The notes under the pieces are model-generated. The model ran no database searches, was not told where the DNA came from, and saw only the letters and a program-made list of their open reading frames with translations. 45,393 bases of DNA, taken from positions 1-45,393 of the forward strand of contig JBOHNX010000003.1 of assembly GCA_050730875.1 (NCBI GenBank). The letters run 5' to 3'. The stretch comes from Candidatus Saccharimonadales bacterium (GTDB lineage Bacteria > Patescibacteriota > Saccharimonadia > Saccharimonadales > EFPC-124). The translations under genes and the position numbers were made by a program. Positions 26,465 through 44,214 of the stretch are shown piece after piece; the stretch's first letter is position 1, and each line of letters starts with the position of its first letter.

Positions 26465-26488
26465 ATGAGTTCACTTCAAATCGGTATT
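26465..26488 (+). other. ychF 5'-end mimic carried by the older element, now the left junction of the intact element
   Basis: ATGAGTTCACTTCAAATCGGTATT encodes MSSLQIGI, with three synonymous differences from 25371-25394. The frame is lost after this point. Confidence 0.55.
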
Positions 26489-26737
26489 CACAAGACGCAA
26501 CCATACCATTCGATATAACCTTCTCGATGCCTCCACTAGATAAAAGAACACGAGGTTATACGCCTCAACAGATCAAACAATTACAAGAAACAGTTGGCGG
26601 AGAGTGGTAAAAGGCTATGCTACCACAGGCACTAATAAATTTGGTTCATTATTTTGCTTGATATTAGACTGAGCATCCCTCCACAAATTTTTTTTCCAGA
26701 ATTCAGGTCGAGCAATTTCACCCCACCACACTCACCA

Positions 26738-28216
26738 CTATATTTTTCTTAAAACATTGAACGCTTCAACCATTGCCAGAGTATCTAACTTACAGTATTC
26801 AATCAGATCAGCAAATAGTACTTCTTGATCAATATGATCCTTATCGTCAATGACTGACTGCATCCATAGCCTCTGGGCAGATGCCCCTTCTTGTATACCT
26901 AAAACCTTATACGACAACTGAGGTGCTATTACAGGTAGTACATTTTTAATACTTGCACTTCCACAGAACTTCTTATCAACAAACCACCCTTTAGCAAATG
27001 GAATCATCAGGTCAACAATACGATCATTCACTTGGTTCAGAAATTCGCTATGATCTGAGACGATTTCAGCTAGTAAGCTATTGCACTTCTTCTCGAAACT
27101 CTCATTCCAAACAATTACAGTACCTTCATCGCCTATATGACTTCGTAATGCACCCGCTAATGGTTCACAAGGATTTGTAGCCTCACGATGTAAATATTCA
27201 ACATGTCGAAGATCAGCCTCTGGGCTATCAAGAATATGTAACGAGTACTGAAATGGTAATTGCTGATAAGGTCTTAGACCGTCGAAAGCAGGAACTATAC
27301 CCCCAAGTGTTTCGTAATCTAGAAAATATAATGGGAACTGTAGGTGGCTTAGAAATTCACGTATAGGTTCATGAAGAATTAATTGCTGATCTAACTTAGC
27401 AGCTTGTACTTGTAACGCTTGCTTTGGCGACAACTTATAGTCGTCTGGTATTTCTTGCAACGTGGTAATGCCCGAACTTTCAAATGCTTCAACCTTCGTG
27501 GCATTTAAGCCACACAGATCATAGATAGTGTCTTCTGGTAGATTATTCAGGGATTTATATATATCAAGCCATTCACCAAATGCACCATTCCCTGCCAATG
27601 AAGGAGATAGATCAGGTACTTCTGAGAGCTGCATCGTAGAGAGTGCTTCGTCAACATTAGAGGAGGTATATTCCTTTTTTGCTAGTACTTTCTCAGTCAC
27701 ATCACTGATGATCGAAAACTCTTGAGGATTAATATCACCATTCCGAACATATCCATTGTTCACATGTATTACGAACACGTTCCTTACCTTAAAGCCTGCG
27801 TCTTCGATTACTTTTACTTGGAATGCTAGATCAATAATATGTTCTGGCTTTGCACTAGTACTAGATTTGATTTCATACAGATCAAAAGTCTTATCGGCAA
27901 CCACATCTATCACATCACAGATACATGTTATCTGCCCTGCTAGAAAGCGTGCTTGAAAGATCGTTTTAACTCCACCCAATAGTGCTTCAAGTGTTTGTTC
28001 TGGTAGGGCTAAGTAACTTGCATAATCTGTAAATCCAAGTCTTACACCATTATCGAAATGCTTCTCGGCATAACCTTCAAACAAATTACCTGCATCAAAA
28101 ACTGCCTGAGTATTATCATCAATGTGTGGCAATTTGTCTTTATCATTCTTCTTCAACCATAGCCATGCAGGGTGCTTTAGGTAAAGTAAGTAATCAGATT
28201 TCGACAATAGCATCAT
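26738..28216 (-). CDS. DUF2779-family protein: N-terminal PD-(D/E)xK nuclease plus a C-terminal exonuclease-like domain
   Basis: 492 aa. It starts LSKSDYLLYLKHPAWLWL. D...DLYEIKSS forms a (D/E)xK motif. YFLDYETLGGIVPAFDGLRPYQQLPFQYSLHIL is the hallmark block I associate with DUF2779. Confidence 0.6.
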   Translation of the reverse strand: MMLLSKSDYLLYLKHPAWLWLKKNDKDKLPHIDDNTQAVFDAGNLFEGYAEKHFDNGVRLGFTDYASYLALPEQTLEALLGGVKTIFQARFLAGQITCICDVIDVVADKTFDLYEIKSSTSAKPEHIIDLAFQVKVIEDAGFKVRNVFVIHVNNGYVRNGDINPQEFSIISDVTEKVLAKKEYTSSNVDEALSTMQLSEVPDLSPSLAGNGAFGEWLDIYKSLNNLPEDTIYDLCGLNATKVEAFESSGITTLQEIPDDYKLSPKQALQVQAAKLDQQLILHEPIREFLSHLQFPLYFLDYETLGGIVPAFDGLRPYQQLPFQYSLHILDSPEADLRHVEYLHREATNPCEPLAGALRSHIGDEGTVIVWNESFEKKCNSLLAEIVSDHSEFLNQVNDRIVDLMIPFAKGWFVDKKFCGSASIKNVLPVIAPQLSYKVLGIQEGASAQRLWMQSVIDDKDHIDQEVLFADLIEYCKLDTLAMVEAFNVLRKI

Positions 28217-28219
28217 AAA

Positions 28220-29371
28220 TCAAAACCAGTCCGATAAATCTTCAACAGGTTCTTCGTGCTCTTTAATTCGTTCTAGATTTTCAATCGTAGATGAAAGCTT
28301 ATTGAGTAATTCTGAATATGTCCATATCTCTAGGGTGGAGCCAAGTGAGCGTACTAAATTTTCTCGATTCTGTTTCCAGCGTGCATCATCGCTATGTTTC
28401 CCAATTACAATAATGCACTTTCCTATATGAGCTTGCCCTTTAATTCCTAATTTCTCTAACTCTGCGTCACCTGCTGGCTTTGCTTCAAGGGTACTCTTAT
28501 ACTCTAGAATTTGAGGTACAGCACGTGCTAAATGTTTGTGAATCTGATAAGTGCTAGTAGGATTATTAATGCTGCTAGATTGAGTAACTTCAAATATATC
28601 ATCTGCTGGGCTTTTCAATTCAATAAGCACGTGATCAACGTATTTAGAGCCTACCCTAGTAAGAACATCGAATTTTTTCGAACTCACCGAACCTTCACGC
28701 TGGAAATCAATGTACTCTAGCCCAAAGATCATGCACCTTTGTTGCCTGTACTTGTGGCCGTCTTCATCGAGCCAATTTTGAACATCTGTTTCAGAAGCAT
28801 TTGTCTCGATAAATTCTTCAAGCTTTTCTTTATAACTTTTAAGTAGCCTGATTGTAGATTTAGTTCTTAATAGCTCTGAAACCTCAATTCCTAGTTCATC
28901 TGCCATTTTAATAATCTCATCATTATTAGATGCATTATTCATATATTCCTTTAGCTGATCAGCAGAAATAACATGGTATGAACCGTCAAAATCACCGAAA
29001 TCGATCGTTTCTTTGAACTTAAATAGAAACGCTACCATTCTCCAAAACTCCCGATAACCGTCAGCACCGTCTGAAAACGGTATTCTTCGACTACGTGAGC
29101 TCGCAGGAGCATTTACATCGTTAAACTGATCGTCAACCCTTCGAAAGATTAATCTAGGCTGGTACTTATTGTCAGTGCCTGATCGTTTGAACTCCGTGTC
29201 GCAGACGGTCAAATTATTTCCTTGTGGTGACTTTGCAAGAATAAAGCCTTTGTAAGTTTCACCCGTAGCGTTATTGACTAAGTTGCAATCAAAATGATCT
29301 TGCTGATTTATAGTCAGCGAATCAATATCATTCTCTGGAACTGTTAGGTCGAAGTATCCAGACGTATCCAC
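28220..29371 (-). CDS. Shedu-like (DUF4263) nuclease-domain protein
   Basis: 383 aa with a GTG start 2 nt after the upstream stop and GAGGAG upstream. The C-terminal block FDVLTRVGSKYVDHVLIELKSPADDIF...AVPQILEYKS...KCIIVIGK fits the SduA PD-(D/E)xK core pattern. Confidence 0.55.
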   Translation of the reverse strand: MDTSGYFDLTVPENDIDSLTINQQDHFDCNLVNNATGETYKGFILAKSPQGNNLTVCDTEFKRSGTDNKYQPRLIFRRVDDQFNDVNAPASSRSRRIPFSDGADGYREFWRMVAFLFKFKETIDFGDFDGSYHVISADQLKEYMNNASNNDEIIKMADELGIEVSELLRTKSTIRLLKSYKEKLEEFIETNASETDVQNWLDEDGHKYRQQRCMIFGLEYIDFQREGSVSSKKFDVLTRVGSKYVDHVLIELKSPADDIFEVTQSSSINNPTSTYQIHKHLARAVPQILEYKSTLEAKPAGDAELEKLGIKGQAHIGKCIIVIGKHSDDARWKQNRENLVRSLGSTLEIWTYSELLNKLSSTIENLERIKEHEEPVEDLSDWF

Positions 29372-29373
29372 GT

Positions 29374-31587
29374 CTACTCCTCGTCATCCGTAGTATTACC
29401 GCCGTAGATCTTAAGATCAACCTTAACACTATCGTGTGGGAGATTAAGTGCATCAACTACATTCAGAACAAGCTGACGCTTTGCATTTGTATTTGTACCC
29501 GTATCGATAAAGTAGCCAGTATTGTAAATTTCTCGACTCGAACCAAAAGCTGTGGCGTCAGTCTTAATATACTTAGAGAGCCACTCATCATTTGTGATTG
29601 TATCGACAAAACGATCAGGACTACTCTCGTAAATAGCCTCGATAATCAAGTCGACTGCATCTGCCCATGTAGAAACTGATTCTTTTTTGCCAAAGACTTC
29701 GACAGACTTAATACCCTTACCCTTGAGATCGATGTCGTCGAGTAGATAAACCGATGTGTCCTCCTCGATTGGCTGGAATGAGGTTATGGGTAGTGGCCAT
29801 ATACTATTTAGCTTGGTTAGCCACCATATCTGACGCTCCTTGAGTGTAGCCTCGTTCCACTCGTCCTTTTGCTTAATCCAGTCATTGATTGGCAGTGGAC
29901 TAGCATCGAATCCGACTGCAACACCCTTAACAACAAGTGTTTTCTTGTCTTTATCCTGAAAGCCATTAAAAGCACGATTGGAGTACTCTGAATTGTAGCC
30001 AGTCAAAGTTAGGTTTGCCAACGTGTGCAGATACTCGCTATGAATACGCTCGTAATCTTCGCCTAGCATATTCTTCCAGCTCTGACCGTATTCACCGCTG
30101 TTGATAGTCTGCGGCATGATGTGTTCGATAGTGGGCTGGAAACCGTCTTCAACCATACGACGCAATGTAGCTTTCGACTCTTTGTTCTTGGCATCGGTAG
30201 ATGCTAAAACATAGCACAAGATAGAGTTACCGTGTTGCTCATAAAATGGATAAGTACGTACAGCTAACTCGAAATCATCATTGTTTGGCATCTGGGTTTG
30301 CCCCGTTTGGGTCAAGAAGATGTACTTAAGGACTTCAACGTATTTAGCCTCTTTGTCACGTCGTAAATAATCAAGAGCTTGCTTATGAAGCGACGCCATA
30401 AAACGGTCCACGCTTGTAACGTAGTAATTGACGATTATACGACGAGAGAAATATGACTCAAGTAGCTTGAACACTGTTACTAACTCATCGTCTGTGAGCT
30501 GTCCGTCTGCATGATAGCCAAGTGCTGACATTGCAAATGGAATATAAATATCGACTCTCATGTAGCGTAGTCTGAAAATTGTTTCAGCTATTCCTGCATA
30601 CTGACCAAACTCAGCACTGTTTTTTACCTTACTTGTATCTGCCAACTTCAAAAGTTCATAGAACTTTAGCGATCGCTTAATGTCGCTATAGAACTTATCA
30701 ACCAGCTCTTTCTCCTGTTCATCTCCAACATGTCTACCGAATTGCTTCTTAAACTCTGGATACACTTCAGGTAATTTAATATTCGACTGTTTCTTTGAGA
30801 TAAGGTAGTAACGGAAGAAGTCAGTAATGGGGTCTTTGTCAGTGGCATATAAAGTACGTTCTATAGGTCGCCAGTATTCGTTATAAACGTGATTACGTAA
30901 TTCATCGCCGTTCAGCATAAGGGCGAAATTACGAATCTTATCACCAGCCTCAAGCGGTTTGCCCGTAGAATTAATACTTTCGAAAACACGCTGTGGATTG
31001 TCATCGTTTGCTACCAACGTTAATACAGCAATCTCAAAGTTCTCAAGGCCGTTGATGTATTTGTCTAGCCCAGTCTTATCTGCAAAATACTCACGGAACT
31101 TAGAGTAAACAATATAAACATTATTCTGGTGGTCTTTTTCGAGCTGTGAAGCCTCACCTTTGGCATCAAAAATATGCTGCAATACTTCGTTATCGGTTGT
31201 AACAGTACGTAGCTTTACACGATTATTGTCCATGTCTTTGTTGATTAAGTACTGGTACTCAATCTTTTCAACCGTAGTATCTGGGTCTTCTATCAGTGCT
31301 GGATTCTTCTTAGCGAGGTGGTATATAGCAGAAATCATCAACAAAGAAGTGGTGACACGCTGTTGACCGTCAATAATAGCTCTTGAATAGGCTTTTCCAG
31401 TGTCCTTAACCTGAACGACAGTGCCAAAATAGTGGTTCTTCCCCTTAGCGACACACTCTTCGAGATCACTTAGAAACTCTTCGACATTCGATGTTTGCCA
31501 TGAGTAGGGTCGCTGAAATTCGGGAATTTCGAAGAACATTCCAGGAGTATAAAGAAATTCCTTCATATTACTTTGGGCAAAAATCAT
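29374..31587 (-). CDS. DUF262-DUF1524 (GmrSD/BrxU-like) type IV restriction enzyme candidate
   Basis: 737 aa. IPEFQRPYSW and IIDGQQR are the DUF262 ParB-like NTPase motifs. TIEHIMPQT...HTLANLTL is a DUF1524 His-Me finger. ATGA overlap with the upstream gene. Confidence 0.75.
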   Translation of the reverse strand: MIFAQSNMKEFLYTPGMFFEIPEFQRPYSWQTSNVEEFLSDLEECVAKGKNHYFGTVVQVKDTGKAYSRAIIDGQQRVTTSLLMISAIYHLAKKNPALIEDPDTTVEKIEYQYLINKDMDNNRVKLRTVTTDNEVLQHIFDAKGEASQLEKDHQNNVYIVYSKFREYFADKTGLDKYINGLENFEIAVLTLVANDDNPQRVFESINSTGKPLEAGDKIRNFALMLNGDELRNHVYNEYWRPIERTLYATDKDPITDFFRYYLISKKQSNIKLPEVYPEFKKQFGRHVGDEQEKELVDKFYSDIKRSLKFYELLKLADTSKVKNSAEFGQYAGIAETIFRLRYMRVDIYIPFAMSALGYHADGQLTDDELVTVFKLLESYFSRRIIVNYYVTSVDRFMASLHKQALDYLRRDKEAKYVEVLKYIFLTQTGQTQMPNNDDFELAVRTYPFYEQHGNSILCYVLASTDAKNKESKATLRRMVEDGFQPTIEHIMPQTINSGEYGQSWKNMLGEDYERIHSEYLHTLANLTLTGYNSEYSNRAFNGFQDKDKKTLVVKGVAVGFDASPLPINDWIKQKDEWNEATLKERQIWWLTKLNSIWPLPITSFQPIEEDTSVYLLDDIDLKGKGIKSVEVFGKKESVSTWADAVDLIIEAIYESSPDRFVDTITNDEWLSKYIKTDATAFGSSREIYNTGYFIDTGTNTNAKRQLVLNVVDALNLPHDSVKVDLKIYGGNTTDDEE

Positions 31588-32750
31588 GATTCCTCCTTCT
31601 TATTCGCTACGATCTGCTGTAAATCTTTGCTGTAGTGGTAATCGACAATATCACCGTTCTGAAGCATATTAACCGCCTGTTCGATAGCTAGTAACGGTAC
31701 TGAATACCATTCACTAGGAACGTACTCTCGCCCATCAGGTCCAATAATTGTCAGGTCTACTTTTGCATCTGAAAATATACGATGAATGAAGTGTTCGACT
31801 TTCTGAGGGTTATAGTCACCTGTCAGCACATAACTATCTACTACTTCAACACCTGCCATGAGGTACGTAGGGTCTTTCTCAGCGTCTTTAATGCGGTCTA
31901 CGATGGTTGTTGAGGTAAAGCCAATCTTGTGTAGATCTTTCACGTTCTGAACGGCAGGATCAGCACTCTGTGATCTCAGAATGTATATATAGCCCTTAAT
32001 CTCGTCTTCATCCGTCAGTCTTTTATAAACACTGTCTTCGTGAGCTGGCACAACTGCATAGCCATCTTCATAGAGACGCATTGATAACGAGCGTCGGTAC
32101 ATATTCGATTCTGAACCGTTCTCGTAGATCACTCGAAAACGCTCTTTATTGCGGTCGTATACCCTCTTTTTATCAGTTGCATCTACGATACGCACCATCT
32201 GACCTGCATGAACGTAGTATTTGCCTAGATGAAGTTGTTCAACTGAGACATAACGCTGTAACTTCAATTTACCTTCGCCTAGCAGTCGCTGTTGCTCCTC
32301 AAAACCACTTTTGAAAGAGTCAAAGTCTTCAGCTCGTTTGCGTTCTGCACGTTCTTTTACTGGACGAGGCTTTGAAAGAGCTTCTTTCACCTTAAATATC
32401 TGATCACCAGTGCTACTAAATAAACCGAATGCATCACTTTCAAACAATTCATCAACAGACTTCGGTGCTTCAGGTACTTCTAATAATCCCAATTCATCTA
32501 TCAGTGTCAGTGCTTCAGCTTTGGTCTTATCGGTCCGAATAGAATTCAAGCGAGCCGCTAAAGAAGCTTCGCTAATATCGTTTGATTCAATTTCTGGTAA
32601 ACGATCATTAATCTTAACAAAGTCAGTAATCTGCTGAAATGAAGCAGCCAAACGATCGTCAGCAGTGACAGGAGCTTGTTTCTTCGTCGGAACAAACATG
32701 TGTCCATCACCAGACTCAAACAGCTTTACTAGATCGTCTGATAGGTCCAT
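31584..32750 (-). CDS. GIY-YIG superfamily (T5orf172/MUG113-type) nuclease-domain protein
   Basis: 388 aa. The C-terminal block is KGYIYILRS...LHKIGFTSTTIVDRI...EHFIHRIF...EWYSV. The start shares one nt with the helicase stop (TAATG). Confidence 0.6.
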   Translation of the reverse strand: MDLSDDLVKLFESGDGHMFVPTKKQAPVTADDRLAASFQQITDFVKINDRLPEIESNDISEASLAARLNSIRTDKTKAEALTLIDELGLLEVPEAPKSVDELFESDAFGLFSSTGDQIFKVKEALSKPRPVKERAERKRAEDFDSFKSGFEEQQRLLGEGKLKLQRYVSVEQLHLGKYYVHAGQMVRIVDATDKKRVYDRNKERFRVIYENGSESNMYRRSLSMRLYEDGYAVVPAHEDSVYKRLTDEDEIKGYIYILRSQSADPAVQNVKDLHKIGFTSTTIVDRIKDAEKDPTYLMAGVEVVDSYVLTGDYNPQKVEHFIHRIFSDAKVDLTIIGPDGREYVPSEWYSVPLLAIEQAVNMLQNGDIVDYHYSKDLQQIVANKKEES

Positions 32751-34726
32751 TACTTATTTGTCTCCGTTGCTTTGGTCTGTTGCCATTTAGCATAACGAGC
32801 CGTTAGATATGCCTGTGCTTGAGCTAGGAGCTTTTCATTCTTATCAGTTGCATTTAATGCAGGATATTTACCATTATGAGCTACTACAAATGCTTTGATG
32901 TGCGGAACTAGAGCTAGTGCATCTTCATCGCTCATGTCGATACGTGAACCTGCGATTGTATCTTGTATGACACGGAACACGTCTGTACCGACTTTCTTAG
33001 ATATGACCTCAAATGCATGTTGGAACGGGTTAATTGAGTCAATGAGGTCAATGCTCAACTCGTCGAGATTAACAAAGCTGTTCGCCATCGTAATGAATTT
33101 CTTATTACCGTCTTCTGTAATTTTTGCAGTCTTAAATGCAAGGTTGCTTGCAAGGTACTGTCGAGTTACTTCAACTTCTTCATCACTCAATCCAGGCAAC
33201 TTTTCACGAATAATCTTTGATTGTAGGTGCTTCATATACTCACCCGTATGACCATTAGCGGCCGCACGTTGCACTTGTGTGTCTTGCAGAACAGCAGCGG
33301 TCAGATCTTCAAGTTCTGTAGCTAGAATATGCTTCACACGCTCTGTAGGTGGTTTCTTTAGACCTTTTACAAAGACCTCACCTGCTTTTGCTTTTTGGTC
33401 TGGTGAAGTACGAGGTGTAAACGTAAAGTTCGGTGCAAGTACCTGCTCCATAAGCAATGACGCAGTAATCGCTTTGAGCATGTTATTCACTGAAATTTGT
33501 ATGTCATCACTCGTACCGTTAGGCATAACTATAAGGTTCGTAAACTGTGCATGAGTCTTGTTATAACTATCTCTCGTACAACGTCCAATAATCTGAACTA
33601 TTTCGGTCAGACTTGCCCGATACCCAATCGTAAGAGCTTGTTCACACCACGGCCAGTCAAAGCCTTCTTTAGCCATTCCTAACGCTACGATAATATCTAC
33701 ACCGTCAATATCTTCACGGGCAACTTCACTGAGGTATTTTGTAATTTTCGCACGATGCGTTGGGTCGTCATCGACTAGGTTAGCCACTTTACGAGTCACA
33801 CCATCTTTGTCGATTACAAGCTCAAGACCTGTTTCGCTGTCTTGTGAATCCCATTCGCCTATAATGTCGTAAACCTTTTGAACTTCTTCATGCTTTCCAA
33901 CTTGTGTCGCTTCTTTTGAATTCACATTAGGTATATGAATAATCGTCTTTTTAGTCGTATCAAGCACTGCATCAAGTGCACCATCGTCTAAGTAACTTCC
34001 CTGATAAAAGTGATAACCGATTCCAAGCGTTTCTAGGTAGGTGTAGCCATTAAGCTGTTCATAGTAGGTATACGTGACCTTATCGAATTCTGCTTCATCT
34101 TCTGGTGTCAGAATCGGTACTGCATCGCCACGAAAGTATGAGCCAGTCATCGCAATAATCTGTACGTTCGAATTACGCATAACGTTATGCAATAGATCAC
34201 CTAGACGGCTATTCTCACTCACTGAGACATGATGAAATTCGTCGATAGCTAAAACTGAATCATTAAATGATTCAACATCTAGGTCCTCTGATTCAAAAGC
34301 AAAACGAAGTGTCGCATGAGTACAAACAAGTATCTTGTCTTCGCCATTCATAAAGCGAATGAACGCCTTTACCTTACTTTTATCATCACCTGTCCCTAAA
34401 CAAAGGTTGTTGCGATCTTCGACATCCCAATCAGAGAAGAAGCCCCCTTCACTGAGCGGTACATTTGAGAACGACGAACCAATAGATTTTTCAGGTACGG
34501 CGACAATGACTTTTTTCTTGCCCTGATTCATAAGCTTGTCTAGACCGATATACATTAGTGCTCGTGACTTACCAGATGCTGGCGGTGCTTTAATCAGCAA
34601 GTGATTACTGCTTCTCTTCTCGAATGCCCGACGCTGCATCTCACGCATACCCATTTCATCTGTCTTAGTAGACGCACCAGTCTTATCGTATTTAACGTCG
34701 ATGATATTCAATGTTTCTTCGTTCAT
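32750..34726 (-). CDS. SF2 DExH helicase (type III Res-like ATPase)
   Basis: 658 aa. Walker A PPASGKSRA, motif II AIDEFHH, motif III MTGS and motif VI QIIGRCTRD. ATGA overlap with the MTase stop. Confidence 0.8.
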   Translation of the reverse strand: MNEETLNIIDVKYDKTGASTKTDEMGMREMQRRAFEKRSSNHLLIKAPPASGKSRALMYIGLDKLMNQGKKKVIVAVPEKSIGSSFSNVPLSEGGFFSDWDVEDRNNLCLGTGDDKSKVKAFIRFMNGEDKILVCTHATLRFAFESEDLDVESFNDSVLAIDEFHHVSVSENSRLGDLLHNVMRNSNVQIIAMTGSYFRGDAVPILTPEDEAEFDKVTYTYYEQLNGYTYLETLGIGYHFYQGSYLDDGALDAVLDTTKKTIIHIPNVNSKEATQVGKHEEVQKVYDIIGEWDSQDSETGLELVIDKDGVTRKVANLVDDDPTHRAKITKYLSEVAREDIDGVDIIVALGMAKEGFDWPWCEQALTIGYRASLTEIVQIIGRCTRDSYNKTHAQFTNLIVMPNGTSDDIQISVNNMLKAITASLLMEQVLAPNFTFTPRTSPDQKAKAGEVFVKGLKKPPTERVKHILATELEDLTAAVLQDTQVQRAAANGHTGEYMKHLQSKIIREKLPGLSDEEVEVTRQYLASNLAFKTAKITEDGNKKFITMANSFVNLDELSIDLIDSINPFQHAFEVISKKVGTDVFRVIQDTIAGSRIDMSDEDALALVPHIKAFVVAHNGKYPALNATDKNEKLLAQAQAYLTARYAKWQQTKATETNK

Positions 34727-37539
34727 TTTGTTTTCTCCCTTTCAGTCATTTGCTCGTACAGTGTGAATAGATCTGCAAGTCGCTCTTCATCTGTATTATA
34801 AGGCTTAGAGCGGTACAATTTGTCTACTACAAGATCTAATTCATGGTGAGCTTGGCGTAAATCTTCTGGCATCTTATCGGGATCGTACATTTCAGAGAGT
34901 GTTTTACCAGTATGATTCTGTCGAGTAAATATTACGTTACGAGCTTTCGACGCAACTTCCTTCTCTTCATGCTCCAATAATGGGCGAAGTGGAAACGTAT
35001 TGTATACAAGTGAAGAAGAGTACCTATAATCAGTCTTCAATTTGCCTGATACTGATCTCATCCAAACCATATGCATCCGTGAGCTAATGATTCCAAATAC
35101 ATGTAGAGGGGCTGAGGATAATACAAAAGAGGCGTTATTTACTACCGTCTCTGGCTCGATGTAGCCTATCGGAACGTATTCTCTACGCTCCGATGAAGTC
35201 GATGGAACGATAATCGAATTGTCGGGAGGCATAACAAATTCACGAAACTGATAGGGCTTATTGGCCATGTCTTGAGCACCTTTGTCTTTGCGTCCTAAAC
35301 GGAATTCACGAACTGCATCTACTCGTTCTCTGACGAACTCATATTTGTAAGCCTCTTCGAATTCAGCATCTGAAATCCATAAGCACCATCGAGATTTCTG
35401 ACTTAGGTAATCTTGTCCACTTACAAATTGCTTAATAAATCTATCTAGTCCTGAGTGTTGAGCAACGGCTTTCTGCATAGTGTCTGTGTCAAATATGAGA
35501 TGACCGCCATCTACTGGCTTGCATCCGTATCCCATTCGTGGAATGTGAGATAGAGGCTTAGTACGCTTTATGACTATGGTGTCACTTCCCTCGCTCAAGT
35601 ATGCATTGATGTTGTCTACTTCAGCACGAACCCCGTGATTATATATATACTTCGTTGCCTTCATAGGTGTTCTCAGCCCAATAATTGCTACTGTAACGCC
35701 CGCAACATTACGAGCACCATTTGTCCATTTGAATGAAGTATGTGCAAAACCGATCTCAACATCTTTTTCAAATATATAAGGCCATAGCAATGCTACTTGC
35801 TCACCCTGACAAATTGAATTAGTAGTTACGAACGCTAACTGAGCCTTTGTACCACTTATGTAATCAGCACCTAACTTAAACCACGGAGCGATAAAATCGA
35901 GATTCTTATAATTGCTGAAGTTCTTAAATACACGTGTCATCCCCGCTTTTTGCTTTTGGTCCTGAAGGCTTGAACCTAAGTATGGTGGATTGCCTATCAA
36001 GTAAATCTCATCCCAAGTCTCTTTTTCTAGCTCAAGCTCAAGAGGTTCATCGTCAAAATCTATTAATGCACTCTGTTCTGGTCCTGTCTTAACACCAGAT
36101 TTGTGTGGCACATTCGGGCACACGTCTTTCCAGTCTAGTATCGTCGAATCACCATGAATAATGCTCGCATTATCTTTAAGTGGAATGAGCTTAATCTCTC
36201 TACCAAACTGCTGTTCGAAGTCGATGTTCATTTGATGCTTAGCAAGGTATAGCGAAAGAATTGCTATCTCATGTGGGAAGTCATCTATTTCGATACCGTA
36301 GAAGTTATCTAGCTTAATTCGAGATTCAAGCTTACCTGCTAATTGTTGACGTTTATGCTCGTCACCGTAGACTCGCTCTATGATAGCGTGTTCGATTTTA
36401 CGAAGCTCTTTATAGGCGATAATCAAAAAGTTACCACTGCCACAAGCAGGGTCAAAAATTCTGATCTTGCTGATTCTATCCCAAATTCTTAGAAGTCTCT
36501 GGTCATTGTCATAATACTTATCAAACTCTTCACGTAGCTGATCAAGAAAGAGCGGTTCAATAGTCTTCATGATGTTCGGAACACTCGTATAGTGCTGTCC
36601 GTGACTGCTTCGCTGCTCTTCATCAACAATGCTTTGAAACATAGAACCGAAGATGTCAGGATTGATCTCTGCCCAATTCTGATTACCACAGTCAAGAATG
36701 AGCTTACGTGCTTGAGCGTTAAATTTAGGGATACCAATGCCGTGCTTTTTGGTGTCAAAGATCGTACCGTTGACATATGGGAACTTACTAAACGGACTCG
36801 TAAACCCTGCCTTGTTTTCAGTATCGAGTGCATCAAACAGAGTTATCAAGAAACTGTCTAAATCACTGCCATCGGTTTGGGTGTAATCTTTGATAGCATT
36901 CGTGAACATCGTTTGTTCATCACGACTGAATACTCTGGTGTCTTCTGCGAAGAAACAAAACAATAAACGACTAAAAAATACGTTCAAGTCATGTCTGAAA
37001 TTGCTGTGTGGGTCAGTTAGTTTCGCACGATTGACCTTCTCGATCTCAGCATACAAATCTTTCATCTTATCAGCAGCACGACGATCAGCTACAGCTTCAG
37101 TCTTCTCGTCAGTGATTTCATCGCCTGTCCAACCGTAGAAAAAGTCTACATCACGATCAATGTCACGCAAATTAATATCAAGACGACTGTTCTTTTTTGT
37201 ATCTACAGCTACTAGACGTTCGTAGTCTGAAACAATCAGGTATCTAGGGTTATAGCGAACGACTAACGGGTCTACCGCCAATTCTTCAGCAGTAGAGTGC
37301 AGCTTATTAGCATCAGCTACATGCTTGAAGTAGACTACTCCCCTTTGTAATATTTCATTATCTTTATCTTCAGCAAGATTCAATGATCCTTCACGAAGCT
37401 TTGTGATGGCAGATCGTGCCCGACCGTATGCAGCTAATAGCTCGTAAACGAAGTCGATGTTGTATGTTTCACGGTTGGCAATTTCAGCCACATTATTCTG
37501 TGCTTCTGCAAATGTAAGTCTAGCCATTTTGTTTGCCAA
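34723..37539 (-). CDS. MmeI/PglX-like gamma-class N6-adenine DNA methyltransferase with TRD; N-terminal nuclease motif apparently degenerate
   Basis: 938 aa. Motif I FDPACGSGNFLI and motif IV GNPPYLGS. The N-terminal PRYLIVSDYERLVAVD aligns by eye with MmeI PRYVLVCDFQRFRLTD. Where MmeI has D...EMK, this protein reads VVYFKHV. Confidence 0.75.
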   Translation of the reverse strand: MANKMARLTFAEAQNNVAEIANRETYNIDFVYELLAAYGRARSAITKLREGSLNLAEDKDNEILQRGVVYFKHVADANKLHSTAEELAVDPLVVRYNPRYLIVSDYERLVAVDTKKNSRLDINLRDIDRDVDFFYGWTGDEITDEKTEAVADRRAADKMKDLYAEIEKVNRAKLTDPHSNFRHDLNVFFSRLLFCFFAEDTRVFSRDEQTMFTNAIKDYTQTDGSDLDSFLITLFDALDTENKAGFTSPFSKFPYVNGTIFDTKKHGIGIPKFNAQARKLILDCGNQNWAEINPDIFGSMFQSIVDEEQRSSHGQHYTSVPNIMKTIEPLFLDQLREEFDKYYDNDQRLLRIWDRISKIRIFDPACGSGNFLIIAYKELRKIEHAIIERVYGDEHKRQQLAGKLESRIKLDNFYGIEIDDFPHEIAILSLYLAKHQMNIDFEQQFGREIKLIPLKDNASIIHGDSTILDWKDVCPNVPHKSGVKTGPEQSALIDFDDEPLELELEKETWDEIYLIGNPPYLGSSLQDQKQKAGMTRVFKNFSNYKNLDFIAPWFKLGADYISGTKAQLAFVTTNSICQGEQVALLWPYIFEKDVEIGFAHTSFKWTNGARNVAGVTVAIIGLRTPMKATKYIYNHGVRAEVDNINAYLSEGSDTIVIKRTKPLSHIPRMGYGCKPVDGGHLIFDTDTMQKAVAQHSGLDRFIKQFVSGQDYLSQKSRWCLWISDAEFEEAYKYEFVRERVDAVREFRLGRKDKGAQDMANKPYQFREFVMPPDNSIIVPSTSSERREYVPIGYIEPETVVNNASFVLSSAPLHVFGIISSRMHMVWMRSVSGKLKTDYRYSSSLVYNTFPLRPLLEHEEKEVASKARNVIFTRQNHTGKTLSEMYDPDKMPEDLRQAHHELDLVVDKLYRSKPYNTDEERLADLFTLYEQMTEREKTK

Positions 37540-37812
37540 ATTTTAATAACATATTATGCAATATTGTACCCTAAAAATACCCCTGTAGATAGGTGTAAAT
37601 TCTTGATCTTAATTACACAGCTATTAAGCAGCAATAATTAAGCCCCCTTCCTCCCGTATTCTCCCTGCTTCCTAGCGTCTTTTACGGTTCAAATGAGAAA
37701 TATACCGTCTCTAGCTTTGGGTTATCTCCTACGACCCCTCAGTGCGTCATCGGTAAACCAAAACCCGTTCATCTTTTGCTTATCAAAAACACTGTGCAAG
37801 GCTGCGGAAATT

Positions 37813-37849
37813 TTTTGGCCAGATTTTCGACCTCTCAACGTCTTTTTCC
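37813..37849 (+). repeat. direct repeat copy 1 (37 nt)
   Basis: TTTTGGCCAGATTTTCGACC is identical to 38511-38530. The following 17 nt match with small indels. Confidence 0.8.
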
Positions 37850-37934
37850 GTTACCTACTTGAGCTATTGCGACAAGACCGCCATATATGCGACGTACAAT
37901 GCCATAAATTAGGCATAGTGTATAATAAGAAGTG

Positions 37935-38502
37935 TAATAAGTCAGACTTATACAGAGGCACGTCACGCTGCTAGAGAAGACCGTACAAGGTATAGTATCG
38001 AAGCAAGAGAGGGAGCATAACCCTCAATAACCGTGAAGAAGTAATCTATCGTATAACTAGCGAGGGCAGCAATGGTCTTATGCGGTTGGCGAACAGGTTG
38101 AGCGATGTGTTTGACATTAAAGGTGGTGTCCTTAGACAAGCCCACCCTGTGGTTAAGGGCCAGTGTCAGTGTTGACGGGTTGACGGCCTAACGGCGGGAA
38201 CTATCGACATAACCTCTACTTCTTCAAGAGTAACGTGCAGACAACTTCTGACGCTTGGGGATAGTAGGGGTAGTGTCTCAAAATCTCAGAGCCTTCAACA
38301 AGAACTAAGGTTTTCTGTGACAGTACCTACTCTATCCCGAATCCGAGAAAGCCCAGAATTCTCCGCAAACAGTGAGCGAAGCGAACGGCAAGTAACCGAA
38401 GGTTACGCTACAGATACCCCGAATTAGAACGTGCCAACAAACTCCAAAAAGTCTGACAAAATTCTGGCGTAGCCCCCTGCTGTAATGCCGTTTTTTATTA
38501 GC
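37935..38502 (+). ncRNA. candidate structured non-coding RNA, class unknown; ends approximate
   Basis: About 0.6 kb with stops in all six frames and visibly higher GC than the surrounding island. Helices: 38009-13/38021-25; 38122-26/38142-46; 38258-64/38332-38 plus 38269-77/38319-27, enclosing 38289-95/38307-13 (two G-U pairs on the + strand only); 38392-97/38401-06 (GAA loop). TATAAT at 37920-25 and a T6 run at 38491-96. Confidence 0.3.
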
Positions 38503-38510
38503 TAGCCTTC

Positions 38511-38547
38511 TTTTGGCCAGATTTTCGACCCTCTAACGCTATTTTTC
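38511..38547 (+). repeat. direct repeat copy 2 (37 nt)
   Basis: See copy 1. It abuts the stop codon (38548-50) of the Mrr-domain gene. Confidence 0.8.
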
Positions 38548-39705
38548 TTATTTTTTCGGGTCAATCGTCGGCAGTACCACAGTAATTAGCTCGTCTGTGT
38601 CTTGTTGTGTCCATTGCTTCTTTGTTGCTGGCTCTTGATCTATATCTATGTGATTATCAACTGGCGTAACCACCCCTTCATCATCGTCAGGGATAAGACC
38701 CTCTAGCTTGTGCAGAAGGTTTTTATGGTGCGTTAATATAACGTCCGATCTACGAGCCAATGTTTTAGCGGCATTCGTAAACAAATTATCCGACACGACT
38801 ACGGCATAATCAGTCCTATAGAAGATTCGCCCACTGACAATCTCTTGGACGGCTTTTGTACCTACGGGACGATTAAACAGCTTGCATTGAATAGCAAACG
38901 TCTTACCCTCTTTACTGGCTATAACATCTACACCGTAATCACCGCTACCTCGTGTTCTTTTCGCGCTGAACCCTCTAGCGTGTAGCAGCTTTCTTATGTA
39001 TTCCTCGTACTTGTACGGGTCATTGCCAATGAACTCAATCGGCAACGATGTATTCTTCGACCCCTTGGTTACAGGCTTACTGCTGTACATCGAAAAAAAG
39101 AGCATGAACACTACGCCCGCCAGATGAGTAACCTTCATGGGTCTGTTTGATTGCAAATCACCGTCAAGATTTAGTGTAAGTAGGCTGGCTCTATTAAGGG
39201 GGTCGTCTGAACCATTTTCTACAGAGACACTTACAACACCTTTGCCAACATTTCCATTCAGTGAGTACAGCAGTTCATCATTCATGTGATCGTCCCTACC
39301 GTCCCTAAGTAAACCAGCAACATACTTATCAGCAACAACAGTATCGGTATCTTTGTATTTTATGCCGTATAGATTTTCTGTGATAAAGGGGGGAGCTGGC
39401 AGTAGTGTGAAGCTGAACTCTTTTACCTTTCCACTATCTACAAGCTTATTGAGCGTAGGTAAAACGACTTTATGACTGAAATATATAATCTCTTTATCAA
39501 ACTTATAATCGATAAATTTGTGCCCGTAATCGTCTTCATCTATGTGCTGTTCAAACTTATCCTCTAATATATTCCAGTGCTGTCTCATGGATGCTACGAT
39601 TGCGGTCGTAAGCAGTCTCCAGTCATCATGCAAAGATGTGCGTAGCTGTGCTACTGCCTCATTTTTCTTCGACCTCTTGCTTGAGAATAGCGTTTTTAGG
39701 TTCAT
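38548..39705 (-). CDS. protein with a C-terminal Mrr-type restriction endonuclease domain and an unknown N-terminal region
   Basis: 385 aa. GSGDYGVDVIASKEGKTFAIQCKLF fits the Mrr_cat D...(Q/E)xK core. There is a central hydrophobic stretch, HLAGVVFMLFFSMY. Confidence 0.65.
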   Translation of the reverse strand: MNLKTLFSSKRSKKNEAVAQLRTSLHDDWRLLTTAIVASMRQHWNILEDKFEQHIDEDDYGHKFIDYKFDKEIIYFSHKVVLPTLNKLVDSGKVKEFSFTLLPAPPFITENLYGIKYKDTDTVVADKYVAGLLRDGRDDHMNDELLYSLNGNVGKGVVSVSVENGSDDPLNRASLLTLNLDGDLQSNRPMKVTHLAGVVFMLFFSMYSSKPVTKGSKNTSLPIEFIGNDPYKYEEYIRKLLHARGFSAKRTRGSGDYGVDVIASKEGKTFAIQCKLFNRPVGTKAVQEIVSGRIFYRTDYAVVVSDNLFTNAAKTLARRSDVILTHHKNLLHKLEGLIPDDDEGVVTPVDNHIDIDQEPATKKQWTQQDTDELITVVLPTIDPKK

Positions 39706-42278: not shown

Positions 42279-42319
42279 TCATTGATATTTATTTATAAAT
42301 GTTTATAATGGAGATTATA

Positions 42320-42511
42320 ATGATAGACAAGAAATATTACACAGTACAGGAAGTTGCCGACTTATTAAAACTTCACTGGCAGAGTGTACTAACCTACATA
42401 AAAAACGGAGAGCTAGAAGCCGTAAAACTCGGTAAGGGTTACCGTATCAGTCAACAAGCTCTGGATTCATTCATAGCAAAACGCACAACCAAAACGAAAG
42501 GAACAAAATAA
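42320..42511 (+). CDS. xis: excisionase-family (MerR-like HTH_17) DNA-binding protein, candidate recombination directionality factor
   Basis: I prefer ATG 42320 (GGAG upstream). YYTVQEVADLLKLHWQSVLTYIKNGELEAVKLGKGYRIS is the classic excisionase-type HTH. TAATG overlap with the recombinase start. Confidence 0.7.
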   Translation: MIDKKYYTVQEVADLLKLHWQSVLTYIKNGELEAVKLGKGYRISQQALDSFIAKRTTKTKGTK

Positions 42512-44214
42512 TGTTGAGAGCGGCACTATATGCTCGTGTGAGCACAGAACTACAAAAAGACGAACAAACTGTCAAAAGCCAGCTATCTGAAGTCAAGAAT
42601 GCAATCATAGATGACGGTAACGCACTTATTGAAAGTTGTGAATACATTGATGAAAGTTGGTCTGGTGCAATACTGGAACGCCCTGCCCTTGATTTAATGC
42701 GTCAAGATGCACGTGAGAGAAAGTTCGATATTTTATACGTGTACGACAAAGGACGTCTAGCTCGAAAGTACGTATACCAAGAAATAGTAATTGAAGAACT
42801 AACCAATTTAGAGATTAAATTTAAGAGCTTGCACGACATTAACGGAAGCACTCCAGAAGAAGTAGTCATGGGCGGTGTTATGGGTCTGTTCCACGAATAT
42901 GAGCGTGTAAAGATTACTGAACGTTTTCGTATTGGTAAGCTCAATAAGGTTCGTTCTGGCAAGCTGCTGGGCTATCAAGCCCCTTACGGCTACGATTACA
43001 TACCTATCAAGGGCAAGGGCTTAGATAAGATCAACGGCAAATTTGTGATCAACGAAGAAGAAGCCAGGGTAGTCAAAATGATTTTCGAATGGATTGGCGT
43101 TGAATGCGTATCAATTAAAGAAGTTATTCGTCGCTTGTACGATCTAGGGATACCGCCTAAGAAACAAAAACGTGACACTTGGACTAATGGTCCAATACAC
43201 CGCATGCTGAAAAATGAAACCTATATCGGTAAGCACTTCTACTACAAGTCTGAGAGCGTAATGACTAAAAACCCTATGGCTAAGACACAGAAGAAGTACC
43301 AACACCGTCATTCAATGAAGGGCAGTCGTAAAACCCGACCACGTGATGAATGGCTAGAGGTAGAAGTAGATCGTATCATCAGTGATGAATTGTTTCAAAA
43401 GGCCAAAGCACAGATTAAAAGCAACGGTAAACTTAGTCAACGCTTCAAGAAAAACCCCTACCTTTTTAGCGGTTTAATATCTTGTCCGTGTGGTGCAAAC
43501 AGAACTGGTGAAGGACAGAATGGTCATTTCTACTACCGTTGTAACGATCGCTTACTGAAATTTCCCAAGCCTCGTTCTTGCTTTGAAGCTGGTGTGAACG
43601 TGCAGGTATTAGACACTGTTGGCTGGGCTAAACTCTGTGAATTAATGACAGACCCTACCCTGTTGCAACAGCAACTTGACCGTTATGCAGAAGAAAAGAA
43701 GCTACTGGCTGGTCAAAGCCCAAAGAAAGATGAATTGAGAATGCAGGTCAAAGCCTTAGAGCAAGAAGAACGTCGCTACGTGAAAGGTTGGGGTCAAGGC
43801 ACGATGTCAGAGACTGTATATACAGATCAGATGAATAGTGTTGCTAGACGCCGTAAGGAGCTTACAGACATGCTTAATAAGCCTGAGGCGGACAAGTTAG
43901 CACAATTACGTGACATTGATTTAGAAACATCTGTAGAACCTTTCAAGCAGTATCTAAGTAATCTCGGCTACGAAGATAAGCTTTTTACTGTAAGGAAGAT
44001 TGTTGATAAAGTAATAGCAACGAAGGAGAACGTAAGAATATGCGGAAAAATACCAGCATATGCTACTTCATTAACTGTAAACAAGGTCGGGTTAGATGTT
44101 GAGCATAGCGATACAAGAGACACAACACAAGCAATTAATCAAGAACAGGTTGGGTTGAATGCTAAGCATTGGCATTGTCGGCCTACCAAACGTAGGCAAA
44201 TCGACGCTGTTTAA
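42511..44214 (+). CDS. large serine recombinase (integrase); its 3' end crosses attR and overlaps ychF
   Basis: 567 aa. AALYARVSTELQ carries the catalytic Ser. Resolvase and recombinase domains, a zinc ribbon (CPCGANRTGEGQNGHFYYRCNDR) and a coiled coil. The last 18 codons lie inside ychF in another frame. Confidence 0.9.
   Translation: MLRAALYARVSTELQKDEQTVKSQLSEVKNAIIDDGNALIESCEYIDESWSGAILERPALDLMRQDARERKFDILYVYDKGRLARKYVYQEIVIEELTNLEIKFKSLHDINGSTPEEVVMGGVMGLFHEYERVKITERFRIGKLNKVRSGKLLGYQAPYGYDYIPIKGKGLDKINGKFVINEEEARVVKMIFEWIGVECVSIKEVIRRLYDLGIPPKKQKRDTWTNGPIHRMLKNETYIGKHFYYKSESVMTKNPMAKTQKKYQHRHSMKGSRKTRPRDEWLEVEVDRIISDELFQKAKAQIKSNGKLSQRFKKNPYLFSGLISCPCGANRTGEGQNGHFYYRCNDRLLKFPKPRSCFEAGVNVQVLDTVGWAKLCELMTDPTLLQQQLDRYAEEKKLLAGQSPKKDELRMQVKALEQEERRYVKGWGQGTMSETVYTDQMNSVARRRKELTDMLNKPEADKLAQLRDIDLETSVEPFKQYLSNLGYEDKLFTVRKIVDKVIATKENVRICGKIPAYATSLTVNKVGLDVEHSDTRDTTQAINQEQVGLNAKHWHCRPTKRRQIDAV

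What the first reader, a model, noticed from the sequence alone, without database searches (positions are those of the whole stretch)
26738..37539. Six start/stop-coupled genes form one minus-strand operon: m6A methylase, helicase and four different nuclease-type proteins
The junctions are ATGA (34723-26), TAATG (32748-52) and ATGA (31584-87), then gaps of 2 nt and 3 nt before the last two genes. The fifth gene has an internal GAGGAG SD. No promoter or terminator can fit between any pair, so expression is obligatorily coupled. The order is: MmeI/PglX-like MTase, DExH helicase, GIY-YIG/T5orf172, DUF262-DUF1524, DUF4263 (Shedu-like), DUF2779. Single parts are known: GmrSD/BrxU type IV enzymes, Shedu SduA, and MmeI-family MTases as in BREX PglX. 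I do not know a described system with this hexad, and DUF2779 is, to my knowledge, not an assigned defence gene. One methylase set against four nuclease folds suggests either layered immunity packed into one transcript or a single multi-component machine.
Basis: partly seen in the sequence, partly recalled or inferred. Interest (0 to 1): 0.85.

Follow-up and report, generated by a model that had tools for sequence, protein, structure and literature searches.

The report
Stacked defence genes behind YeeABC-type restriction system
The six coupled genes are real, but they are a known three-gene restriction-modification-like system followed by three swappable nuclease genes on a mobile island. They are not one new six-part machine, and the only open lead is the last gene, DUF2779.

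Summary
Six minus-strand ORFs (26738-37539) are joined by ATGA, TAATG and ATGA overlaps and by 2-nt and 3-nt gaps. All six domain calls hold.

Genes 1-3 are not new. They are the YeeA(DnmA)-YeeB-YeeC triad described in 2009: an MmeI homologue without the PD-ExK nuclease motif, a DExH helicase and a GIY-YIG/T5orf172 protein. In 53 genome loci from many phyla the triad kept the same order and strand wherever the contig reached far enough. Gene 3 also has homologues on 228 plasmid records.

Genes 4-6 are cargo: a GmrSD-type type IV enzyme, Shedu SduA, and a DUF2779 Cas4-like/DEDD nuclease. The full hexad occurs only in two close Saccharibacteria relatives. Even there the modules are mosaic, with identity breakpoints at gene boundaries. 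In other genomes the same slot holds Thoeris, a UvrD-like helicase, GmrSD-HEPN, ABC-3C or another Shedu.

The operon appears to lie on a roughly 17.7-kb island with a serine recombinase. So "layered immunity in one transcript" is supported and "single machine" is not.

One lead remains. DUF2779 recurs as the last gene of many different RM and defence operons: 20 of 46 unbiased loci had such genes directly upstream. It also sits in housekeeping contexts, so its role is unresolved.

The parts
34723..37527 (-). Gene 1: MmeI-family m6A DNA methyltransferase with target-recognition domain, lacking the PD-ExK nuclease motif (YeeA/DnmA class). The ORF can be extended to a TTG at 37539.
   Evidence: All five Pfam MmeI domains. 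575 bits to MmeI 5HR4, but the alignment only starts at MmeI residue 102. No conserved D...ExK in the first 98 aa of 43 orthologues. NPPY at residue 513.
34984..35589 (-). Target-recognition domain of gene 1, swapped between close relatives.
   Evidence: Window against L005: N-terminal region 89%, MTase 85%, TRD 36%. Against L013: N-terminal region 62%, TRD 81%. DNA identity falls to about 0.5 here.
32750..34726 (-). Gene 2: SF2 DExH helicase (YeeB class).
   Evidence: Pfam DEAD/ResIII. Motifs SGKS52, DEFH162 and QIIGR378. 52% identical over 465 aa to the Acinetobacter Tn2009 'yeeB' remnant.
31584..32750 (-). Gene 3: protein with a C-terminal GIY-YIG/T5orf172 nuclease domain (YeeC class).
   Evidence: Pfam T5orf172/MUG113 at residues 253-362. 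Conserved full-length family. Homologues on 228 plasmids, annotated as GIY-YIG nuclease.
29374..31587 (-). Gene 4: GmrSD/BrxU-type (DUF262-DUF1524) putative type IV restriction enzyme with a 148-aa C-terminal extension.
   Evidence: Pfam GmrSD_N and GmrSD_C. PADLOC Orf5 and HEC-06. DGQQR73 and EHIMP488. The SeqA-like hint in the C-terminal extension is not significant.
28220..29371 (-). Gene 5: Shedu SduA-type PD-(D/E)xK nuclease.
   Evidence: Pfam SduA_C. PADLOC SduA, near full length. D235...E251-x-K253.
26738..28216 (-). Gene 6: DUF2779 protein, an N-terminal Cas4-like PD-(D/E)xK nuclease fused to a C-terminal DEDD/RNase H-like exonuclease.
   Evidence: Pfam PF11074. D101/E115/K117 invariant in the alignment; DYET300-303, Y474 and D478 also invariant there. 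AF2 mean pLDDT 82.7, with Cas4 4R5Q, SSO0001 and EXO5 as top Foldseek hits. Literature: PMC13621843, PMC3985635.
26551..26567 (-). Terminator-like hairpin after the operon.
   Evidence: It lies inside the island-end segment that is conserved in L001 and L005.
26480..26611 (.). Conserved island terminus (putative att arm).
   Evidence: 88% identical to L001:19751-19882. In L001 it is directly joined to a sequence like window 44105-44176.
42299..44214 (+). Excisionase/HTH-like gene (42299-42511) and large serine recombinase (42511-44214) of the island. The putative second att junction lies near 44105-44176.
   Evidence: Pfam Resolvase, Recombinase and Zn_ribbon_recom. PHROGs excisionase/DNA-binding. 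Homologous backbone in L001 and L005.
38548..39705 (-). Mrr_cat restriction-endonuclease-like gene upstream of the operon. It is part of a 2.66-kb insertion (37751-40415) that L005 lacks.
   Evidence: Pfam Mrr_cat, E 1.4e-21. Insertion inferred from blastn against L005.

Best explanation
The locus is one co-transcribed operon on an integrative island. It strings four separate nucleic-acid defence modules together.

Module 1 (genes 1-3) is the YeeA/DnmA-YeeB-YeeC type I-like restriction-modification system. Gene 1 recognises an asymmetric site through its TRD and methylates one adenine as the self mark. At unmethylated sites it is inferred to recruit the DExH helicase (gene 2) as an ATP-driven motor and the GIY-YIG protein (gene 3) as the cutter. 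These replace the PD-ExK domain that MmeI itself carries.

Module 2 (gene 4) is a GmrSD-type enzyme, inferred to cut DNA that carries modified bases. It would cover phages that escape module 1 by hypermodification.

Module 3 (gene 5) is a Shedu nuclease.

Module 4 (gene 6) is a Cas4-like/DEDD dual nuclease of unassigned role.

Shown here: the gene order, the coupling, the domain identities, the intact catalytic motifs, the conservation of the triad, the variability of the cargo and the mosaic history. Inferred: all biochemical activities and the division of labour.
For: Triad: genes 1, 2 and 3 were found in the same order and strand in every one of the 53 genome loci recovered with gene 3 homologues where the contig reached far enough. 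The loci come from Patescibacteria, Actinomycetota, Bacteroidota, Desulfobacterota, Chloroflexota and Pseudomonadota, and the junctions are typically -8 to +5 nt. The triad also occurs on plasmids. It matches the published description of MmeI homologues that lack the PD-ExK motif and are 'invariably' followed by a DEAD helicase and a GIY-YIG protein (PMC2731913).

Genes 4-6 are present together only in L001 and L005. Sliding identity shows the window resembling L001 in genes 1-3 (0.86-0.95), but at 0.55-0.66 in gene 4, 0.81-0.93 in gene 5 and about 0.6 in gene 6. Against L005 the pattern is the reverse.

The slot after gene 3 holds other known systems elsewhere: Thoeris, a UvrD-like helicase, GmrSD_N-HEPN, ABC-3C, SduA and AAA_13. 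Genes inserted between genes 1 and 2 in other phyla are RhuM, Fic/DOC and AlbA_2. From my own knowledge, these are the classic passengers of type I RM operons.

TRD swapping is what an active specificity-diversifying RM system would show. All catalytic motifs are intact.
Against: No activity was tested. In B. subtilis the homologous dnmA-yeeB-yeeC cluster restricted neither transformed plasmids nor three phages (PMC7261158, PMC9973331), so restriction by the triad is not established in general. The only positive evidence is a report of increased phage sensitivity after dnmA or yeeB deletion in Vibrio crassostreae, as cited in PMC9973331. Tight coupling (-4 to +3 nt) of genes 4-6 to the triad could still reflect functional dependence that comparative data cannot exclude. 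GmrSD-type genes recur next to the triad in about 10 of 53 loci.
Confidence: 0.8

Rival explanations
1. The six proteins form one multi-component machine in which the methylase marks self and the helicase feeds DNA to four cooperating nucleases.
For: All six genes are start/stop-coupled. The same hexad occurs in L001 and L005.
Against: More than 40 loci and many plasmids carry the triad without genes 4-6. GmrSD and Shedu are self-sufficient single-gene systems elsewhere (established knowledge; L047 has SduA after an unrelated triad allele). The modules have discordant histories even among the three hexad carriers.
Confidence: 0.05
2. The triad is a restriction-dead relic and gene 1 acts as an orphan regulatory m6A methylase, as proposed for B. 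subtilis DnmA. Only genes 4-6 would then defend the cell.
For: B. subtilis data: no restriction of plasmids or phages (PMC7261158, PMC9973331).
Against: The helicase and GIY-YIG motifs are intact, and all three genes are under strong conservation across phyla. TRDs are exchanged between close relatives. The genes ride on mobile islands and conjugative plasmids. The mBio paper notes that the B. subtilis YeeB and YeeC proteins lack C-terminal stretches present in the Vibrio proteins.
Confidence: 0.12
3. Gene 6 (DUF2779) is not a defence gene. It is a housekeeping or element-maintenance nuclease for repair or recombination, and defence cassettes simply accumulate upstream of it, as at a hotspot next to a conserved gene.
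For: The family is very large and strongly conserved in Saccharibacteria: more than 3,400 hits and 72% mean column identity. L063 has dnaG-rpoD-DUF2779, L075 has a P-type ATPase upstream, and L061 and L070 share ordinary synteny. The Mycoplasma homologue is quasi-essential (PMC13621843). Only 3 of 80 DUF2779 loci carry the triad.
Against: The association with RM and defence operons recurs in distant lineages and on plasmids. Here and in L001 and L005 the gene lies inside the mobile island.
Confidence: 0.45

Closest known systems
YeeA(DnmA)-YeeB-YeeC cluster of Bacillus subtilis, i.e. the 'second set' of MmeI homologues (Morgan et al. 2009, PMC2731913; Nye et al. 2020, PMC7261158; PMC9973331)
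   Same: An MmeI-homologous methylase/TRD without a PD-ExK motif, followed by a DEAD/DExH helicase and then a GIY-YIG/T5orf172 protein, in that order and tightly coupled. Found on horizontally acquired, low-GC DNA.
   Different: Here three further nuclease genes are appended to the same operon. The host is a Saccharibacteria-type genome. Function is untested. The B. subtilis version showed no restriction.
MmeI and other type IIG/IIL single-polypeptide RM enzymes (PDB 5HR4)
   Same: Gene 1 aligns with MmeI from residue 102 to the C-terminus (575 bits), including the NPPY methylase and the TRD. MmeI methylates a single strand, which is the expected mode here too.
   Different: The catalytic D70/E80/K82 region is not aligned or conserved. 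Cleavage must be supplied in trans. PADLOC would nevertheless label gene 1 as type IIG RM.
[quoted passage not shown]
   Same: Methylase-defined self mark plus an ATP-driven motor plus a nuclease. For hemimethylating systems, a site-orientation rule is needed to avoid cutting newly replicated self DNA.
   Different: The component families differ: no HsdS/HsdR, no Res, and no AAA+ MtsA/MtsB. The nuclease is GIY-YIG. No orientation rule has been shown for this family.
BREX with embedded BrxU, and Hma systems with embedded candidates (HEC-06 is a DUF262-DUF1524 protein)
   Same: A methylation-based system carries a GmrSD-type type IV enzyme and other cassettes within one operon, giving complementary cover.
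   Different: The anchor system here is the YeeABC triad, not BREX or Hma. No PglZ, BrxC or BrxL is present.
Shedu (SduA) and GmrSD/BrxU/SspE-type enzymes
   Same: Genes 5 and 4 match their Pfam and PADLOC models and keep the catalytic motifs.
   Different: They are translationally coupled to neighbouring genes. Gene 4 carries an extra 148-aa C-terminal domain of unknown fold.
Solo-Cas4 and DUF2779 (MMSYN1_0389, UU173 family)
   Same: A Cas4-like N-terminal nuclease plus a DEDD exonuclease. [quoted passage not shown]
   Different: No CRISPR-Cas component was seen among the genes examined. No function has been shown for any DUF2779 protein.

Membership tests
YeeA/DnmA-YeeB-YeeC triad (MmeI homologues, set 2) | Methylase homologous to MmeI over the MTase, TRD and C-terminal domains | tested here: met
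   phmmer against 5HR4: E 3e-171, residues 88-929. Pfam MmeI_Mtase, MmeI_TRD and MmeI_C.
YeeA/DnmA-YeeB-YeeC triad (MmeI homologues, set 2) | [quoted passage not shown] | tested here: met
   The alignment to MmeI starts after D70/E80/K82. No acidic or lysine column is conserved in residues 1-98 of 43 orthologues. The N-terminal 116 aa has no PDB match.
YeeA/DnmA-YeeB-YeeC triad (MmeI homologues, set 2) | Immediately followed by a DEAD-type helicase and then a GIY-YIG/T5orf172 protein | tested here: met
YeeA/DnmA-YeeB-YeeC triad (MmeI homologues, set 2) | Sequence homology to genes named yeeB and yeeC | tested here: met
   Gene 2 is 52% identical and gene 3 is 40% identical to the Tn2009 genes called yeeB and yeeC in A. 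baumannii (PMC9258068). No direct alignment with the B. subtilis proteins was made because the sequences were not at hand.
YeeA/DnmA-YeeB-YeeC triad (MmeI homologues, set 2) | m6A on one strand of an asymmetric site; restriction of unmethylated DNA | not testable with these tools
   Needs methylome data and challenge assays.
MmeI-type single-polypeptide type IIG/IIL restriction enzyme | Conserved N-terminal PD-ExK catalytic residues (MmeI D70, E80, K82) | tested here: not met
BREX (PglX methylase) | PglX-level similarity and neighbouring PglZ, BrxC and BrxL genes | tested here: not met
   NCBIfam BREX PglX models score 17-33 bits against cut-offs of 400-900. No such neighbours were found.
GmrSD/BrxU type IV restriction enzymes | DUF262 (DGQQR) N-terminal domain and DUF1524 His-Me C-terminal domain | tested here: met
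   Pfam E 7e-33 and 7e-22. DGQQR73 and EHIMP488. Dependence on modified DNA was not testable.
Shedu | SduA C-terminal PD-(D/E)xK domain (DUF4263) | tested here: met
   Pfam SduA_C, 8e-11. PADLOC SduA, 1.9e-13 over residues 8-358. D235/E251/K253.
DUF2779 / PF11074 (Cas4-like + DEDD) | PF11074 match, a Cas4-like N-terminal fold with D-ExK, and DEDD residues in the C-terminal domain | tested here: met
   Pfam 5e-38. Foldseek Cas4 4R5Q, E 8e-4, probability 1.0. Invariant D101/E115/K117 and D300/E302/D478/Y474. Similarity of the C-terminal fold to RNase H is only weak.
MANTIS / Gao_RL | AAA+ ATPase MtsA, co-regulator MtsB and helicase-nuclease fusion MtsD | tested here: not met
   No AAA+ gene in the operon; the helicase and the nuclease are separate proteins. 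The comparison rests on the preprint's description.

The most novel reading that the evidence does not exclude
DUF2779 (a Cas4-like 5'-3' nuclease fused to a DEDD 3'-5' exonuclease) is a dedicated downstream partner of restriction-type defence operons. It would be an end-processing or clean-up exonuclease that finishes off DNA cut by the upstream system. This would matter most in small genomes, which may lack RecBCD or AddAB. The gap between the RM module and DUF2779 would then be a conserved slot into which other defence cassettes are swapped.
Probability: 0.25. Interest if true: 0.65.

Novelty: new member of a known kind. Interest (0 to 1): 0.4.

Why it matters
The finding matters in four ways.

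1. It corrects an annotation trap. Defence-finding tools label gene 1 as a complete type IIG restriction enzyme, although its nuclease motif is missing. The PADLOC-DB v2 scan run here returned no match for gene 3 and only weak partial matches for gene 2.

2. The YeeABC-type triad is widespread, including on resistance plasmids, yet it is still mechanistically unsolved. It is negative in B. subtilis and positive in one Vibrio report. The intact, TRD-diversifying version here is a good candidate for reconstitution.

3. The locus shows how defence cassettes are exchanged precisely at gene boundaries inside one translationally coupled operon on a mobile island.

4. It gives a testable lead for a large uncharacterised nuclease family, PF11074.

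Tried and rejected
- **E. coli genomes:** megablast of the operon found nothing.
- **RNA genes:** no tRNA genes. No Rfam family in the window at gathering thresholds, and none in the 1.1-kb non-coding stretch upstream of gene 1 at E <= 1.
- **Gene 3 fold:** the AF2 model (mean pLDDT 74.7) gave no significant fold match. The middle beta-barrel resembles SH3/Tudor/EF-P-type barrels only weakly.
- **Gene 4 C-terminal domain:** SeqA is the top hit in two searches but is never significant (Pfam E 8.5e-4, below the cut-off; PDB profile E 0.29). A homologue search with this domain returned only four short fragments. I do not claim an m6A reader.
- **Other named systems for genes 1-3:** BREX, DISARM, MADS, type ISP and MANTIS were considered. 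None fitted the gene content; the tested features for BREX and MANTIS are in the membership rows.
- **DUF2779 as a fourth component of the triad:** rejected. Only 3 of 80 DUF2779 loci carry the triad.
- **Gene 5-gene 6 pair as a unit:** rejected. It occurs only in the window, L001 and L005.

Full report
**Observation.** The window carries six minus-strand ORFs between 26738 and 37539. Read directly, the junctions are ATGA (34723-26), TAATG (32748-52) and ATGA (31584-87), then a 2-nt gap and a 3-nt gap. A GAGGAG sits in the last codons of gene 4, just upstream of the GTG start of gene 5. Gene 1 probably starts at the ATG at 37527 rather than the TTG at 37539. Promoter-like consensus sites are no more frequent than in shuffled sequence: 21 against 30.1 +/- 6.8. 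A terminator-like hairpin follows the last gene at 26551-26567.

**Domain calls.** Pfam supports every call:
- Gene 1 has all five MmeI domains.
- Gene 2 has DEAD/ResIII.
- Gene 3 has T5orf172/MUG113 at residues 253-362.
- Gene 4 has GmrSD_N and GmrSD_C.
- Gene 5 has SduA_C.
- Gene 6 has DUF2779.

PADLOC labels gene 1 as a type IIG REase-MTase (954 bits), gene 4 as Orf5/HEC-06 and gene 5 as SduA. It has no hit for gene 3, only weak partial hits for gene 2, and only a weak Cas4 hit for gene 6.

Catalytic motifs are intact in all six proteins:
- Gene 1: NPPY513.
- Gene 2: SGKS52, DEFH162 and QIIGR378.
- Gene 3: conserved GIY-YIG-region residues.
- Gene 4: DGQQR73 and EHIMP488.
- Gene 5: D235...E251xK253.
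- Gene 6: D101/E115/K117 plus D300/E302/D478/Y474.

**Genes 1-3 are a known triad.** Gene 1 aligns with MmeI (PDB 5HR4) at E 3e-171, but only from MmeI residue 102 onward. That lies downstream of the catalytic D70/E80/K82. Its first 116 residues match nothing in the PDB. Among 43 orthologues no acidic or lysine column is conserved in the first 98 residues.

This is the 'second set' of MmeI homologues of Morgan et al. 2009. That set lacks the PD-ExK motif and is 'invariably located next to' a DEAD helicase and a GIY-YIG protein, with YeeA-YeeB-YeeC of B. subtilis as the example. The authors proposed a type I-like system using single-strand modification (PMC2731913).

Later work named YeeA DnmA (m6A at GACGAG). 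It found no restriction of plasmids or of three phages in B. subtilis. It also noted that homologues in Vibrio crassostreae affect phage sensitivity (PMC7261158 and PMC9973331).

A sequence link to genes carrying these names was tested. Gene 2 is 52% identical over 465 aa, and gene 3 about 40% identical, to the 'yeeB' and 'yeeC' remnants of A. baumannii Tn2009 (PMC9258068). A complete triad sits on a conjugative Providencia plasmid.

**Neighbourhood test.** An alignment of gene 3 homologues recovered 53 genome loci. They came from Saccharibacteria and other Patescibacteria, Actinomycetota, Bacteroidota, Desulfobacterota, Chloroflexota, Pseudomonadota and others. Wherever the contig reached far enough, genes 1, 2 and 3 were present in the same order and strand, usually overlapping by 1-8 nt.

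Genes 4, 5 and 6 occur together only in L001 (CP064992.1) and L005, both Saccharibacteria. The position after gene 3 is variable. It holds:
- Thoeris (ThsB-ThsA-ThsB) in L007 and L009;
- a UvrD-like helicase in L013;
- a GmrSD_N-HEPN fusion in L018;
- ABC-3C components in L043;
- another SduA in L047;
- an AAA_13 ATPase in L035 and L051.

In Bacteroidota and Desulfobacterota, genes are inserted between genes 1 and 2: AlbA_2/HATPase_c_4, HTH plus Fic/DOC, and RhuM. From established knowledge, these are the usual passengers of type I RM operons.

**Mosaic history.** In 300-nt windows the window sequence compares with its two closest relatives as follows.

| Region | Identity to L001 | Identity to L005 |
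|---|---|---|
| Genes 1-3 (non-TRD) | 0.86-0.95 | 0.55-0.79 in genes 2-3 |
| Gene 4 | 0.55-0.66 (0.73 in the 300-nt window spanning the gene 3/4 junction) | 0.85-0.90 |
| Gene 5 | 0.81-0.93 | 0.87-0.93 |
| Gene 6 | about 0.6 | 0.73-0.85 |

The breakpoints fall at the gene boundaries. The TRD of gene 1 is also exchanged on its own. Against L005 the N-terminal region is 89% identical, the MTase 85% and the TRD 36%. Against L013 the N-terminal region is 62% and the TRD 81%. The modules therefore assort independently even among the three carriers of the hexad.

**Setting.** GC drops from about 0.51 to about 0.41 between roughly 24 and 44 kb. A large serine recombinase (42511-44214) with an excisionase-like gene (42299-42511) lies next to ychF. 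L001 and L005 share this backbone.

L001:19740-19960 aligns with window 26620-26480 up to a short core. It then continues as window 44176-44105. This is what the two att junctions of an element spanning about 26.48-44.14 kb would give. On this reading the whole operon, gene 6 included, rides on a roughly 17.7-kb integrative island. The inference is suggestive, not proven.

**DUF2779.** The literature describes the family as a Cas4-like nuclease fused to a DEDD/RNase H-like exonuclease, with no known function. The JCVI-syn3.0 homologue is quasi-essential (PMC13621843, PMC3985635). An AF2 model (mean pLDDT 82.7) has Cas4 4R5Q (E 8e-4), SSO0001, EXO5 and ACE1 as its top Foldseek hits. RNase H appears only weakly.

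Gene 6 homologues lie downstream of the triad, co-oriented, in 11 of the 53 loci; L019 also carries one, but upstream and on the opposite strand. Between 0 and 3 variable genes lie between gene 3 and the co-oriented homologues.

The reverse test gave a different picture. Of 80 metagenome loci found with DUF2779, only 3 carry the triad. However, 55 of 75 loci with upstream sequence have a co-oriented neighbour within 100 nt, and these neighbours are highly variable. Across 88 such upstream genes the commonest Pfam and PADLOC families were type I HsdR/M/S, ResIII/SNF2, GmrSD, Thoeris, HerA/SIR2, Eco57I-type methylases, UvrD and MADS.

In the unbiased set, 20 of 46 loci with at least 3 kb upstream had a labelled RM or defence gene among the three upstream co-oriented genes. 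For 27 of 46, one lay within five genes. Both counts are lower bounds.

Against a defence role:
- L063 shows dnaG-rpoD-DUF2779.
- L075 has a P-type ATPase upstream.
- L061 and L070 share ordinary synteny.
- The family is very large and unusually conserved.

Two of three plasmid contexts inspected looked defence-like, with SbcCD-like, NERD, AAA and dGTPase genes. The role of gene 6 is therefore open.

**Conclusion.** The operon is best read as layered immunity on a mobile island. It consists of a YeeABC-type type I-like RM module, followed by a type IV enzyme, a Shedu nuclease and a DUF2779 nuclease. The hexad is a lineage-specific stack, not an undescribed system.

The mechanism of the triad remains an inference from domain content and from analogy with type I, type III, type ISP and MANTIS systems. 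In that model the TRD-guided methylase marks self on one strand, the helicase acts as motor and the GIY-YIG protein cuts.

Noticed in passing
window 26480-26611 and 44105-44176; L001:19740-19960: The two window segments lie 17.6 kb apart but are contiguous in L001, joined at a short core (AATACCAATG-like). This suggests att junctions of a serine-recombinase island that carries the whole operon, and a tandem or decayed second element in L001.
   Followed up: partly
window 37751-40415: A 2.66-kb insertion relative to L005. It carries a 156-aa gene (a PHROG of unknown function), an Mrr_cat endonuclease-like gene (38548-39705) and about 0.8 kb of non-coding DNA.
   Followed up: partly
window 37813-37847 and 38511-38545: A 35-nt direct repeat (80% identical), 698 nt apart, brackets a non-coding stretch between the Mrr-like gene and gene 1. 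No Rfam match at E <= 1. Origin unknown.
   Followed up: partly
window 29377-29820 (gene 4 residues 590-737): A C-terminal domain conserved in the Saccharibacteria GmrSD alleles. Its TGYFIDTGTNTNxKR stretch aligns with the SeqA segment TPFWVITNNNTSRKQ. SeqA is the top hit in two searches but below significance.
   Followed up: partly
L007, L009 against L077, L079: The same block, Thoeris (ThsB-ThsA-ThsB)-DUF2779-small ORF (then an FtsK/SpoIIIE-like gene in L007 and L079; a different gene follows DUF2779 in L009), is preceded by the YeeABC triad in L007 and L009. In L077 and L079 it is preceded by a type I RM HsdR gene. The RM module is swapped in front of a constant block.
   Followed up: partly
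L001 (CP064992.1) 5000-10000: In this closest complete genome, genes 1 and 2 are split into several ORFs (405, 180, 81 and 460 aa). These are either frameshift errors of the assembly or pseudogenes.
   Followed up: no
L134 (A. baumannii pZHOU-1) and Tn2006/Tn2009: Truncated yeeB and yeeC remnants of this triad flank blaOXA-23 between ISAba1 copies. The triad is also intact on a conjugative NDM plasmid of Providencia (L135).
   Followed up: partly
L003, L054, L055: A DUF6508 gene (145 aa) occupies the slot between GmrSD and DUF2779 where the window has Shedu.
   Followed up: no
window 16539-18839 and 10403-14260: Outside the island there are two tandem pairs of paralogous ORFs: two of 372 aa, and one of 540 aa with one of 462 aa. 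They were seen in the all-against-all clustering and were not examined.
   Followed up: no
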